Source: Bacteroidales bacterium | Lineage (GTDB): Bacteria > Bacteroidota > Bacteroidia > Bacteroidales > UBA1715 | NCBI GenBank assembly: GCA_031262005.1 | Contig: JAISIO010000143.1 | Coordinates: 1 to 31,081, forward strand | Direction of reading: 5' to 3' | DNA length: 31,081 nt | Part shown: in pieces, positions 7,747-10,019 of the stretch | Position numbering within the stretch: the stretch's first letter is position 1 | Layout of the letters: each line of letters starts with the position of its first letter | Translations under genes and position numbers: made by a program | The notes under the pieces: generated by a model | What the model was told of the DNA's origin: nothing | Seen by the model: only the letters and a program-made list of their open reading frames with translations | Database searches by the model: none

Positions 7747-8442
7747 ATGATTACGAGAAAAATAACTGTAAATTTATTTATAGTATTGCTGTTTGTATTC
7801 TGCGGTTGCAATAAATCAGAAAACCATCCACAAACCAATGATTTTGAAAATCAATCGACGACAATGAGTGGCACATGGAAAGTAGAAGCATTATATTCTA
7901 AAGGAGAATTGACCAATATTAGTTCATTATTCGATAATGATGCCACTTACTCGCATATTTCAATAATAATTCCGGATACTACACAAGGAATTATATCGGG
8001 TAATACATTTTATGATACATTTGAATATTCATTTAAAATAGAGGAACCTCAACAAATCTCTATATATAACTATAAAGAAACTCATTATGTTGCAAATGAA
8101 TTGATAATTTGCTTTGCACAAGAAATAGATGTTGAAGAATTTGCTGTTAATTCTAATCTTGGTGTTATGCCCAAGCGTTCATTATGGGATTGGAAAATTT
8201 GGCTTTTTGAGACAAATGGAACAAAACCATTAAGTGAGCTAATAGATATTCTATCTCAAAACGATGTCGTAAAGTATGCGCAGTACAATCATAATGGTAT
8301 TGAATTACGAAATACGAACGATGCGACTTTTAGGGAAAGTATGTATAATACTGTGAAATATGAAATTTCAAATAATGAATTAGTTTTTATAAATGCTGAA
8401 AACCAGCCTATTATTTTTCTTACTAAAATCAAAATGCCATGA
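7747..8442 (+). CDS. Lipoprotein with a META-like domain interrupted by a subtilase-propeptide-like domain
   Basis: ATG 7747 gives MITRKITVNLFIVLLFVFCG-C21 (lipobox). META-like halves GTWKVEAL...IISGNTF and TFRESM...YEISNNELVFI flank a 75-aa segment similar to the downstream S8 propeptide. ATGA overlap with the S8 start. Confidence 0.75.
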   Translation: MITRKITVNLFIVLLFVFCGCNKSENHPQTNDFENQSTTMSGTWKVEALYSKGELTNISSLFDNDATYSHISIIIPDTTQGIISGNTFYDTFEYSFKIEEPQQISIYNYKETHYVANELIICFAQEIDVEEFAVNSNLGVMPKRSLWDWKIWLFETNGTKPLSELIDILSQNDVVKYAQYNHNGIELRNTNDATFRESMYNTVKYEISNNELVFINAENQPIIFLTKIKMP

Positions 8443-10019
8443 GAAAAGTAATGTGTATAATAACAATCATTGTACTGACGCATTCAGTGTATGCGCAAGA
8501 TAGGTTTACTTTTATAGAGAACGATACATCTTCTTTTGTTGAAAATGAATTGATAATATGGTTGGAACAAGGAGTTGATGCGAAAGAATTTGCAGTACGT
8601 TCGGCTCAGAAAATTGAACCAAAACGTTGTTTGTTTGAAGAATTAAATATTTGGCTTTTTGAGTTTGCTGATGAAAAAGGACAAAGAAATATGGCGCAGC
8701 GAAATATGCGAATGAATAATTTAGCATCAAATAATCAAGTAAAGTATGTTCAAAACAACCATACAGGTATAGATTTACGAGGTCTTGATCCTGATGATCC
8801 GTATTATAATGGTTGTTTATATGGTGGTCCACAATGGGCTCCTCCGAAAATTGGTTTACCTGATGTCTGGGAAGAATTTACCATAGGAGGAATTACCACA
8901 ACCGGTGATAATATTGTTGTTGCAGTTATTGATAATGGGTTTTATCAGCAACACGAAGATTTGAATTTTTGGAAAAACATCAATGACCCAATAAATGGCG
9001 CAGATGATGACGGTAATGGATATGTTGATGATTATAACGGTTGGAATGCTTATAATAACACGTATTCTTTACTTGATTCTTTACATGGAACTGCTGTTTC
9101 CGGAGTAATTGGGGCTATTGGGAATAATGGCAAAGGTATAAGTGGAATCAATTGGAATGGTAAAATTTCTCCGGTGTGTGGTAGTATTTCCGGTGGAAAT
9201 GAAGCGGTAGTTATTGAAGCATATAGATATGTATATCAAATGCGCTCATTATATAACGAAACTAATGGACAAAAAGGTGCATTTATTGTTGTTACCAATT
9301 CATCGTTTGGTATAGATTGGAATAAAGGAGGAAATCCCTCCAATTTTCCTATATGGTGTGCTTTATATGATGTTTTAGGAAATGTCGGTATATTAAGTTG
9401 TGTCTCTGTTATTAACGCAAATGACAACATAGATATAGTGGGAGATATGCCATCGGGTTGCTCAAGTGAATATCTTATAGCCGTAACAAATACTACAGAA
9501 GATGATACTAAATACTATTTCGCTGGTTATGGTGTTAGTACGGTAGATATTGGAGCTCCGGGTACTGATATTTATACTACCGTTCCTGGTGTTGATGAGT
9601 TCGGATATGCCCCTCGAAACGGGACTTCTTTTGCGAGTCCCCATGTTGCAGGTGTTATTGCTCTTATGTACGCTGCAATGCCACAAAATACAATACAAAC
9701 ATATAAAAATAATCCTGCGGATTTTGCATTGTTTGTAAAACGACAATTACTTGACGGTGCAGATGAAATACCTGCGCTTGAAGGATTAATTGCTGAGAGT
9801 AGAAGATTAAATGCGTATGAAGCCGTGCGAAAAGCGCAGTGTGATGCGTATCTTCTTAATCAAGACGTAATCACTAATAACATACTTACAGCATCATGCG
9901 ATATCAACGTACAAAATGTAGAAGTAGAACAAGGAGTAACATTAATTCTTGATGCCGAAGGGACAACAAAAATACAGAGTATTAAAGTAGAATTAGGCGC
10001 AGGATTAAAAATACAATAA
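8439..10019 (+). CDS. S8 family subtilisin-like serine peptidase (preproenzyme)
   Basis: Signal peptide ending VYA-Q; propeptide to about GIDLR; catalytic triad VAVID165NG, LH216GTAVSGVIG, GTS397FASPHVAG; DIGAPG motif; short beta-rich C-terminal module. Confidence 0.95.
   Translation: MRKVMCIITIIVLTHSVYAQDRFTFIENDTSSFVENELIIWLEQGVDAKEFAVRSAQKIEPKRCLFEELNIWLFEFADEKGQRNMAQRNMRMNNLASNNQVKYVQNNHTGIDLRGLDPDDPYYNGCLYGGPQWAPPKIGLPDVWEEFTIGGITTTGDNIVVAVIDNGFYQQHEDLNFWKNINDPINGADDDGNGYVDDYNGWNAYNNTYSLLDSLHGTAVSGVIGAIGNNGKGISGINWNGKISPVCGSISGGNEAVVIEAYRYVYQMRSLYNETNGQKGAFIVVTNSSFGIDWNKGGNPSNFPIWCALYDVLGNVGILSCVSVINANDNIDIVGDMPSGCSSEYLIAVTNTTEDDTKYYFAGYGVSTVDIGAPGTDIYTTVPGVDEFGYAPRNGTSFASPHVAGVIALMYAAMPQNTIQTYKNNPADFALFVKRQLLDGADEIPALEGLIAESRRLNAYEAVRKAQCDAYLLNQDVITNNILTASCDINVQNVEVEQGVTLILDAEGTTKIQSIKVELGAGLKIQ

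What the first reader, a model, noticed from the sequence alone, without database searches (positions are those of the whole stretch)
7747..8801. Lipoprotein carries a grafted copy of the neighbouring subtilase's propeptide: candidate built-in inhibitor
Seen: residues encoded at 8086-8310 (YVANELIICFAQEIDVEEFAVNSNLGVMPKRSLWDWKIWLFE...LSQNDVVKYAQYNHNGIELR) align with the S8 propeptide at 8535-8780 (FVENELIIWLEQGVDAKEFAVRSAQKIEPKRCLFEELNIWLFE...LASNNQVKYVQNNHTGIDLR), about 35 of 75 identical by hand. Similarity is also visible in DNA (aatgaattgataat in both). The segment sits inside a META-like domain whose two halves flank it, and the two genes overlap by ATGA. Known: subtilase propeptides (I9-like) are folding chaperones and tight inhibitors of their own enzyme; in Tannerella forsythia, lipoprotein inhibitors (potempins) are encoded directly upstream of their cognate secreted peptidases. 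Inference: a membrane-anchored inhibitor or trans-acting chaperone created by inserting a propeptide into a barrel loop. Because the propeptide is tethered at both ends it cannot be shed like a normal propeptide. I know of no described example of this architecture.
Basis: partly seen in the sequence, partly recalled or inferred. Interest (0 to 1): 0.85.

Follow-up and report, generated by a model that had tools for sequence, protein, structure and literature searches.

The report
Lipoprotein with grafted protease prodomain
A small membrane-anchored protein of an uncultured termite-gut bacterium carries, spliced into one of its loops, a copy of the "safety cap" (prodomain) of the protease encoded next door; it most likely holds or blocks that protease, though this has not been tested.

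Summary
Residues 113-188 of the lipoprotein (window 8083-8310) are homologous to the prodomain of the overlapping S8 gene (BLASTP E 2e-14, 36% identity; a 63-nt DNA repeat at 79%). It is a true domain insertion:
- At least 27 protein clusters carry the same host domain with only about 10 residues at that point.
- At least 14 clusters carry the insert.
- An AlphaFold model (pLDDT 86) shows an intact META/DUF4847-like barrel (Z 12.4 and 11.2) with a separate beta-alpha-beta-beta-alpha-beta prodomain (Z 8.0 to the PC1/3 prodomain).

Insert-free relatives also sit directly upstream of S8 genes of the same prodomain family, so the lipoprotein-protease pairing is older than the graft. The graft arose once (AU test p 0.87) and is under purifying selection. 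In several loci its first half is being homogenised with the neighbour's prodomain by gene conversion (93% DNA identity in one locus).

Function is inferred only. The best reading is a tethered prodomain-type inhibitor or holdase of the S8, analogous to Tannerella potempins.

Earlier notes of this scan describe stand-alone lipoprotein prodomain copies upstream of S8 genes in other genomes. Here the copy is inserted in a pre-existing partner domain. This is a new variant of a known kind.

The parts
7747..8442 (+). Lipoprotein gene (231 aa from ATG 7747; an upstream in-frame ATG at 7714 would give 242 aa). The TGA stop at 8440-8442 overlaps the S8 start.
   Evidence: ORF list. The public collection holds the product starting at 7747 (P0004).
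7747..7809 (+). Signal peptide and lipobox (…LLFVFCG|C21). Cys21 (7807-7809) is the likely lipidated residue.
   Evidence: Read from the sequence. Homologues have canonical lipoboxes (…LSSC, …ATSC, …LISC) in the alignment. No SPII predictor was available.
7867..8082 (+). N-terminal part of the META/DUF4847-like host barrel (residues 41-112, six strands).
   Evidence: AF2 model, pLDDT >90; VIA-align 4zgf Z 12.4, 2la7 Z 11.2, 2kts Z 9.8, all spanning model residues 37-231.
8083..8310 (+). Inserted prodomain copy (residues 113-188, HYVANELII…NHNGIELR): beta1 118-123, alpha1 129-136, beta2 140-147, beta3 151-156, alpha2 162-170, beta4 175-180, tail 181-188.
   Evidence: BLASTP E 2e-14 to the S8 prodomain; absent from 27 or more homologous clusters; fold Z 8.0 to the PC1/3 prodomain and TM 0.69 to the subtilisin BPN' prosegment; Pfam Fervidolysin_NPro-like 15 bits, below the cut-off of 21.
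8311..8439 (+). C-terminal part of the host barrel (residues 189-231: helix 190-201 and three strands).
   Evidence: AF2 model; matches profile positions 186-221, which follow directly in insert-free homologues.
8439..10019 (+). S8 subtilase gene (526 aa): signal peptide 1-20, prodomain ~21-114, catalytic domain with D165/H216/S397, and a ~50-aa C-terminal module. No T9SS sorting domain was detected.
   Evidence: Pfam Peptidase_S8 E 2.6e-27; invariant D165, H216, S397 in alignment A4; no Por_Secre_tail match for this protein, while 9 of the 14 S8 sequences in alignment A4 have one.
8529..8780 (+). Prodomain of the S8 (residues 31-114, SSFVENELII…NHTGIDLR), the source family of the insert.
   Evidence: Fervidolysin_NPro-like 14.4 bits; 33 of 82 relatives match that family, best E 1.2e-8.
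6221..7528 (+). Upstream cassette gene: a secreted protein with an S74 intramolecular-chaperone domain and a T9SS C-terminal sorting domain. It recurs upstream of the lipoprotein in other loci.
   Evidence: Pfam Peptidase_S74 E 9.7e-13; NCBIfam Por_Secre_tail 22 bits. A homologous gene precedes the lipoprotein in L001, and a T9SS-CTD or S74-like gene does so in L021, L028, L034 and L042.

Best explanation
The gene encodes an outer-membrane-type lipoprotein built from a META/DUF4847-like beta-barrel, with a complete copy of the neighbouring S8 protease's N-terminal prodomain inserted in one loop. The barrel lipoprotein was already the upstream partner of this S8 family. The prodomain-coding DNA of the adjacent gene was duplicated once into the loop that precedes the barrel's helix.

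The grafted domain keeps the four strands, helix 1 and the ...N-H-x-G-I-x-L-R tail of the real prodomain. By analogy with solved subtilisin-prodomain complexes, these should be the parts that pack on the mature enzyme and lie in its active-site cleft. Helix 2 has diverged and become more hydrophobic.

I therefore think the lipoprotein binds the mature S8 the way its own prodomain does and acts as a membrane-tethered inhibitor or holdase. This would be functionally like Tannerella potempins, but it uses a whole prodomain instead of a reactive-centre loop. Recurrent gene conversion with the neighbour's prodomain keeps the graft matched to its target in several loci.

Shown: homology, insertion, fold, synteny, single origin, purifying selection, conversion tracts. 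Inferred: binding, inhibition, cellular location.
For: - Homology: BLASTP E 2e-14; DNA repeats.
- Insertion: 27 or more insert-free and 14 or more insert-bearing clusters share the same host domain and differ only at this point.
- Fold: pLDDT 86, with an intact barrel plus a separate beta-alpha-beta-beta-alpha-beta domain. Prodomain matches are 9fid_D Z 8.0, 3whi_B Z 6.9, 3bgo_P Z 6.9 and 1spb_P TM 0.69. Trans-acting relatives also match: the ASP chaperone ORF2 (3wqb_B) and the inhibitor POIA1 (1v5i_B).
- Synteny: a 4-nt overlap in the window. An S8 with the homologous prodomain lies directly downstream in the window, L001, L021, L025 and L026. The same holds for insert-free forms in L027, L036, L039, L043 and L044, and in L038 after a ~650-nt gap.
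- Retained surfaces: family consensus is identical at beta1 5/6, alpha1 8/8, beta3 6/6 and tail 7/8 positions, against alpha2 3/9. The terminal Arg is kept in 89% of inserts.
- Selection: dN/dS is about 0.24-0.37 in the insert and 0.24-0.40 in the host.
- Concerted evolution: cognate first halves share 93% (L025), 84% (L001) and 78% (L026, L021) DNA identity. In L025, 33 of 38 identical-residue codons are the same codon, against 0.62 in non-cognate pairs.
- Single origin is not rejected (p-AU 0.87).
- Precedent: potempins are small lipoproteins encoded immediately upstream of, and co-transcribed with, the peptidases they inhibit. PotE is an 8-stranded barrel, and the model matches it at Z 8.0-8.5.
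- Three relatives carry a sub-threshold PrcB_C-like N-terminal domain. PrcB is the lipoprotein partner of the S8 dentilisin.
Against:
- No expression data.
- Two insert-bearing genes have no S8 next to them (L003, L022).
- The window's own pair is the most diverged (50% identity in the first half) and shows no recent conversion.
- Gene conversion can result from proximity of repeats alone and does not prove function.
- The S8 keeps its own prodomain, so the need for a second copy is not obvious.
- The S8 lacks a recognisable T9SS domain, so it is unclear whether enzyme and lipoprotein meet on the same side of the outer membrane.
- Similarity to potempin E is at the level of a common barrel (Z about 8), and there is no sequence similarity to any solved chain.
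Confidence: 0.5

Rival explanations
1. Docking anchor rather than inhibitor. The grafted prodomain serves mainly to hold the mature, sorting-domain-less S8 on the membrane, as PrcB/PrcA hold dentilisin PrtP, leaving it wholly or partly active.
For: The S8s next to insert-bearing lipoproteins in the window, L001 and L025 have no Por_Secre_tail, whereas 9 of the 14 S8 sequences in alignment A4 do. PrcB_C-like N-terminal domains occur in three relatives, below threshold.
Against: S8s without a sorting domain also follow insert-free lipoproteins (L038, L039, L043). S8s with one follow insert-free lipoproteins too (L036, L044), so there is no clean correlation. The retained ...LR tail would be expected to occupy the active site.
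Confidence: 0.2
2. Trans-acting foldase. The tethered prodomain copy catalyses folding of the S8 after export, like ORF2 for the Aeromonas sobria protease or lipase-specific foldases.
For: Foldseek lists the ASP-ORF2 chaperone complex (3wqb_B) among the matches. Four relatives give weak ORF_2_N Pfam matches. Prodomains are folding catalysts by established knowledge.
Against: Every S8 in these loci keeps its own full prodomain, which makes a second foldase redundant. ORF2-type chaperones serve enzymes that lack a prodomain.
Confidence: 0.12
3. A tolerated by-product. An illegitimate duplication of adjacent DNA landed in a permissive loop, and the insert has no function of its own. Similarity is maintained only by gene conversion.
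For: Conversion tracts are clear. The insertion site is a surface loop. Orphan copies exist (L003, L022).
Against: The insert is intact in 14 or more clusters at 50% identity or less. It has dN/dS about 0.24-0.37, like the host. It folds confidently. Its second half is insert-specific and conserved (ETDGT…LSQ) although it is not homogenised.
Confidence: 0.08

Closest known systems
Potempins (PotA-E) of Tannerella forsythia with their KLIKK peptidases, especially PotE (8-stranded barrel) and PotC (inhibitor of the S8 mirolase); PMC9890683
   Same: A small lipoprotein in a Bacteroidota member, encoded immediately upstream of and co-oriented with a secreted peptidase. A beta-barrel scaffold carries the functional element inserted between late secondary-structure elements. 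The model matches PotE at Z 8.0-8.5. In a sister genome the same cassette slot holds an S1 peptidase preceded by small lipoproteins, and peptidases of different classes share a C-terminal module, as KLIKK peptidases do.
   Different: There is no sequence similarity. Potempins inhibit through a short reactive-centre loop, whereas here a whole ~76-residue prodomain is inserted. PotC, the S8 inhibitor, is an OB fold rather than this barrel. Inhibition is not shown here.
Free-standing prodomain-like inhibitors and chaperones of subtilases (MEROPS I9 type: Pleurotus POIA1, yeast PBI2; Aeromonas sobria ORF2 external chaperone)
   Same: A prodomain fold encoded apart from the enzyme and acting in trans. 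Foldseek lists 1v5i_B (POIA1-subtilisin) and 3wqb_B (ASP-ORF2) among the matches.
   Different: Those are independent soluble proteins. Here the domain is inserted inside another domain, lipid-anchored, tethered at both ends, and coexists with the enzyme's own prodomain.
META domain proteins (PF03724; HslJ, Leishmania META1, Acinetobacter CipA) and DUF4847 lipoproteins of Bacteroides
   Same: The fold of the host domain: 4zgf Z 12.4, 2la7 Z 11.2, 2kts Z 9.8, and the nearest Atlas clusters are all META. Nine relatives reach META at E down to 1.7e-4, and one relative has a bona fide META domain in tandem.
   Different: No described META or DUF4847 protein carries an inserted prodomain, and the function of those families is largely unknown. 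The window's protein itself gives no META hit.
Stand-alone lipoprotein copies of S8 prodomains noted earlier in this scan (e1-1521140, e1-5045219)
   Same: A lipoprotein bearing a copy of the neighbouring S8's prodomain, directly upstream of it, read as a tethered inhibitor.
   Different: Those are described as detached prodomain copies. Here the copy is grafted into a pre-existing partner barrel and exchanges sequence with the neighbour. They are unchecked AI notes on other genomes, and I did not compare sequences.

Membership tests
Subtilase N-terminal prodomain (Pfam PF22148 Fervidolysin_NPro-like; I9-type fold) | Match to the family HMM at or above the curated cut-off (21 bits) | tested here: inconclusive
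   The window insert scores 15 bits and the window S8 prodomain 14.4 bits, both below the cut-off. However, 33 of 82 aligned relatives match at E <= 0.1, best 1.2e-8.
Subtilase N-terminal prodomain (Pfam PF22148 Fervidolysin_NPro-like; I9-type fold) | beta-alpha-beta-beta-alpha-beta open-sandwich fold | tested here: met
   AF2 elements E118-123, H129-136, E140-147, E151-156, H162-170, E175-180, with pLDDT mostly >90. 9fid_D Z 8.0 at rmsd 2.4 over 69 residues; 1spb_P TM 0.69. An AFDB 'Fervidolysin-like N-terminal prodomain' entry gives TM 0.62.
Subtilase N-terminal prodomain (Pfam PF22148 Fervidolysin_NPro-like; I9-type fold) | Homology to a segment lying between the signal peptide and the catalytic domain of an S8 enzyme | tested here: met
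   BLASTP E 2e-14 to residues 31-133 of the adjacent S8. A profile of the lipoprotein finds N-termini of many S8 proteins.
Subtilase N-terminal prodomain (Pfam PF22148 Fervidolysin_NPro-like; I9-type fold) | Binds and inhibits, or folds, the cognate mature enzyme | not testable with these tools
META domain (PF03724) | Match to the family HMM at or above the curated cut-off (24 bits) | tested here: not met
   No META hit for the window protein or its flanks at E <= 10. Nine of 82 relatives hit weakly, best E 1.7e-4.
META domain (PF03724) | META-type beta-barrel with one helix before the last strands | tested here: met
   2la7 Z 11.2 and 2kts (HslJ) Z 9.8 over model residues 37-231. AFDB and ESM Atlas neighbours are named META/DUF306. 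DUF4847 (4zgf) scores higher, Z 12.4.
Potempins (T. forsythia lipoprotein peptidase inhibitors) | Lipoprotein with a lipobox, encoded immediately upstream of and co-oriented with the target peptidase | tested here: met
   …FCG|C lipobox read from the sequence; a 4-nt overlap with the S8 gene; the arrangement recurs in 10 or more loci. Definition from PMC9890683.
Potempins (T. forsythia lipoprotein peptidase inhibitors) | Sequence or specific structural relationship to PotA-E | tested here: not met
   The host-domain profile finds no PDB chain at E <= 10. The structural match to PotE is Z 8.0-8.5, at the level of a common barrel.
Potempins (T. forsythia lipoprotein peptidase inhibitors) | Potent, specific inhibition of the genetically linked peptidase | not testable with these tools
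   Needs biochemistry.

The most novel reading that the evidence does not exclude
A loop-type, potempin-like lipoprotein partner of an S8 protease was converted into a prodomain-type inhibitor by inserting the target's own prodomain. This graft is kept up to date with its target by recurrent gene conversion from (and sometimes into) the neighbouring protease gene. The result would be a self-updating, membrane-tethered inhibitor whose junction mimics the unprocessed zymogen.
Probability: 0.3. Interest if true: 0.8.

Novelty: new variant of a known kind. Interest (0 to 1): 0.6.

Why it matters
If the function holds, this is a clear natural case of domain grafting that creates a protease regulator: the enzyme's own prodomain, reused in trans, lipid-anchored, and inserted into an older partner protein. 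It would extend the potempin principle (lipoprotein inhibitor upstream of its peptidase) beyond Tannerella to uncultured gut Bacteroidales, with a different inhibitory element. It also offers a tractable pair of natural variants, with and without the insert, for asking what a whole prodomain adds over a loop. The conversion tracts show a simple genetic route by which an inhibitor can track its target. The architecture could serve as a template for engineering tethered, highly specific subtilase inhibitors.

Tried and rejected
- Complex prediction of the lipoprotein (36-231) with the mature S8 (114-526) was not folded.
- A single-sequence AF2 run gave a useless model (pLDDT 38). Only the 82-sequence alignment worked.
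- The word-indexed homologue search found only two relatives. The profile search was needed.
- The first genome-contig scan with the lipoprotein found nothing. Among 401 genomes of the order, only the window's own genome has the insert-bearing form. Two same-genus genomes have no match.
- A metagenome scan with the 41-sequence alignment failed for lack of a conserved stretch. A 10-sequence alignment worked.
- A profile of the prodomains against PDB sequences gave only chance-level hits, and the host profile gave none.
- I considered that S8s next to insert-bearing lipoproteins specifically lack a T9SS domain, and rejected it. Insert-free partners precede both kinds.
- I considered that the conserved GG[TS]R…ED loop of insert-free forms is a reactive-centre loop whose Arg coincides with the prodomain's terminal Arg. 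I dropped it as a claim, because from memory the motif resembles the structural 'sTRmaC' motif of META domains, and the alignment at the junction is ambiguous.
- hhalign of the small lipoproteins P0113 (sister genome) and P0009 (L001) against the host profile gave probabilities of 49% and 67%, which is inconclusive.
- No RNA run was listed for the cassette or the gene.
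Full report
**1. Observation**

The window encodes three co-oriented genes between nuoC (5751-6215) and nuoD (10074-11192):
- an S74-chaperone/T9SS-tail protein (6221-7528);
- a small lipoprotein (7747-8442, or from an upstream ATG at 7714);
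- an S8 subtilase (8439-10019), whose ATG overlaps the lipoprotein's TGA (Pfam and NCBIfam).

BLASTP of the lipoprotein against the S8 aligns lipoprotein residues 123-216 (numbering from 7714) with S8 residues 31-133. There are 37/103 identities and E is 2e-14. At DNA level there is a 63-nt repeat at 79% (8085-8147 vs 8534-8596) and an 18-nt repeat at 94%.

**2. It is a domain insertion**

The indexed search found only two relatives. A profile search of 1.84 billion representatives found 105 proteins. Mapping them back on the profile gives three classes:
- 14 clusters match end to end and carry the insert.
- At least 27 clusters match profile positions 1-104 and 186-221, joined by only 2-23 residues.
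- About 44 match only positions ~105-184 near their N-termini. The full-length ones are S8 proteases and most of the rest are short fragments; four fragments (P0029, P0049, P0060, P0070) are really pieces of insert-bearing proteins.

In the combined alignment (A3; junctions), insert-free proteins read …NYGG[TS]R[IS]AEDxWGxAF… exactly where the window protein has HYVANELII…NHNGIELR.

AlphaFold2 with this alignment gives a confident model (mean pLDDT 86). It has six strands (42-112), then a beta-alpha-beta-beta-alpha-beta unit (118-180) and a lower-confidence tail (181-189), then a helix (190-201) and three strands (204-227).

Structure searches treat the flanks as one domain: DUF4847 4zgf at Z 12.4, 2la7 at Z 11.2, HslJ 2kts at Z 9.8, and potempin E 8ehc/8ehd at Z 8.5/8.0. 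They treat the insert as a protease prodomain: PC1/3 prodomain 9fid_D at Z 8.0, pro-subtilisin E at Z 6.9, and subtilisin BPN' prosegment at TM 0.69. AFDB and ESM Atlas neighbours are META/DUF306 proteins, and no Atlas cluster matches both domains together.

By Pfam, the window's insert and prodomain reach only 14-15 bits for Fervidolysin_NPro-like (cut-off 21). However, 33 of 82 relatives match that family (best E 1.2e-8), and 9 match META.

**3. Context**

An S8 gene whose N-terminus matches the insert part of the profile lies directly downstream of insert-bearing lipoproteins in the window, L001, L021, L023-25 and L026. The same is true for insert-free lipoproteins in L027, L036, L039, L043 and L044, and in L038 after a ~650-nt gap. 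The lipoprotein-S8 pairing therefore predates the graft.

There are exceptions. Insert-bearing genes in L003 (followed by another lipoprotein and pckA) and in L022 (between Carboxyl_trans and OAD_gamma genes) have no S8 next to them. The insert-free gene of a reference genome (G134) is followed by a non-S8 protein. A T9SS-tail or S74 gene often lies upstream.

N-terminal extensions of longer relatives vary: PrcB_C-like (sub-threshold, three cases), BACON, or a true META domain.

The S8 has an intact D165/H216/S397 triad. It has no recognisable T9SS domain, whereas 9 of the 14 S8 sequences in alignment A4 do.

**4. Evolution of the graft**

All inserts share a signature absent from true prodomains: WLFE-TDGT-x-x-L…LSQ. 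About 30% of the prodomains, including the window's own, also carry five more residues before helix 2 than the inserts do.

A tree of 58 inserts and prodomains clusters the inserts (3 label changes against 15.8 in shuffles). A tree constraining the inserts to one clade is not rejected; it is in fact better than the quick free search (p-AU 0.87). This points to a single origin from the prodomain of this S8 subfamily.

Yet in individual loci, the first half of the insert (YVEN…WLFE, 43 codons) resembles its own neighbour's prodomain more than it resembles other inserts:
- L025: 93% DNA identity; 33 of 38 identical-residue codons are the same codon.
- L001: 84% DNA identity, with a 36-nt perfect run.
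- L026: 65/69 nt identical over the first 23 codons.
- L021: 86% protein identity. Its S8 prodomain carries 'SWNTW', a trait otherwise seen in the insert lineage.
- Background codon identity in non-cognate pairs is 0.62.

This is recurrent, bidirectional gene conversion limited to the first half. The window's own pair is the most diverged (50% protein identity in that half).

Pairwise Nei-Gojobori ratios are about 0.24-0.37 for the insert and 0.24-0.40 for the host. Synonymous sites are near saturation, so the values are rough.

**5. Mechanism**

Comparing family consensus residues by structural element, inserts and prodomains agree at beta1 5/6, alpha1 8/8, beta2 5/8, beta3 6/6, beta4 4/6 and tail 7/8 positions, but at only 3/9 in alpha2. 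The terminal Arg is kept in 89% of both sets.

From established knowledge of subtilisin-prosegment complexes (1SPB type), the sheet packs on two surface helices of the enzyme and the C-terminal tail lies in the substrate cleft. The helices face away. The retained parts are thus the enzyme-binding parts.

Because the tail continues into the barrel's helix, the graft mimics the uncleaved zymogen junction. It may be nicked after Arg188 or may resist cleavage.

Potempins provide the precedent. They are small outer-membrane lipoproteins encoded immediately upstream of, and co-transcribed with, the peptidases they inhibit, and their functional loops are inserted late in a beta-barrel (PMC9890683).

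My best reading is a tethered prodomain-type inhibitor or holdase (0.5). The rivals are a docking anchor (0.2), a foldase (0.12) and a tolerated by-product (0.08).

No RNA run was listed. The only run holding the DNA is a termite-gut metagenome.

**6. Comparison and novelty**

Literature searches found no paper combining propeptide-like, subtilase, lipoprotein and inhibitor, and nothing on META lipoproteins with inserted prodomains.

Free-standing prodomain-like inhibitors and chaperones are known (POIA1, ORF2; the structures are listed). So are lipoprotein inhibitors upstream of peptidases (potempins).

Earlier notes of this scan describe stand-alone lipoprotein prodomain copies upstream of S8 genes in other genomes. 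These are unchecked leads, not evidence.

What is new here is the insertion of the prodomain into a pre-existing partner barrel, the existence of natural variants with and without the insert, and the concerted evolution with the target. I rate this a new variant of a known kind, with interest 0.6.

**7. Setting**

The closest genomes are termite-gut Bacteroidales MAGs. The 3.8-kb cassette interrupts the nuo operon. In 76 of 78 related loci, nuoC and nuoD are less than 100 nt apart. A same-genus MAG has, at the same site, an S74 gene, two lipoproteins and a trypsin-like peptidase ending in the same ~50-residue C-terminal module as the window's S8. Another same-genus MAG keeps only a remnant of that module.

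Noticed in passing
window 6193-10051: The three-gene cassette splits the complex I operon between nuoC and nuoD and is flanked by imperfect 23-nt direct repeats (6193-6215 and 10029-10051, 20/23 identical). In 76 of 78 related Bacteroidales loci the nuoC-nuoD gap is under 100 nt (median 3).
   Followed up: partly
L051 3143-7615 (same-genus MAG, minus strand) and L052 659-1337: At the same nuoC|nuoD site, a sister genome carries an S74/T9SS gene, a 300-aa and a 162-aa lipoprotein, and a trypsin-like (S1) peptidase instead of the S8. Another sister genome keeps only a ~680-nt remnant matching the S8's last 43 residues. The slot looks like an exchangeable lipoprotein-plus-peptidase cassette.
   Followed up: partly
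window 9864-10016; L001 4240-4396 and 6635-6791; L051 3146-3300: A ~50-residue C-terminal module (…ITNNT..GCDNLNVQNV.V…L.LDA.G…F.V.LG..L.IK/Q) is shared by two different S8 subfamilies and an S1 peptidase. Por_Secre_tail does not recognise it. It recalls the shared C-terminal extension of Tannerella KLIKK peptidases. Its role is unknown.
   Followed up: no
L022 2033-2701; L003 194-886: Orphan insert-bearing lipoprotein genes with no S8 beside them sit inside or next to housekeeping operons: between the Carboxyl_trans and OAD_gamma genes, and upstream of pckA. In L003 the next gene is another lipoprotein with a nearly identical signal peptide.
   Followed up: no
L026 873-1270: The S8 next to the insert-bearing lipoprotein has a tandem duplication of the prodomain tail (DVVHVQNNHTGIALRS followed by DVMHVQNNLTNVASGS).
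   Followed up: no
L034 4500-6329: A 610-residue protein contains an insert-bearing host domain followed by a second, insert-free host domain. Several other relatives (P0020, P0022, P0044, P0052) have tandem host domains.
   Followed up: no
L001 4480-6794: A second pair lies in the same contig: a 144-aa lipoprotein (P0009) directly upstream of a second, different S8 (P0008, 624 aa) with a longer N-terminal region. hhalign of P0009 to the host profile is inconclusive (probability 67%).
   Followed up: partly
window 6221-7528: The upstream gene combines Gly-rich repeats, an S74 intramolecular-chaperone domain (E 9.7e-13) and a T9SS sorting tail. A homologue precedes the lipoprotein in L001 (same S74 + T9SS-tail product), a weaker S74-like match does so in L042, and the same-genus MAG has a 55%-identical copy after nuoC. 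Whether it is a substrate of the S8 is unknown.
   Followed up: no
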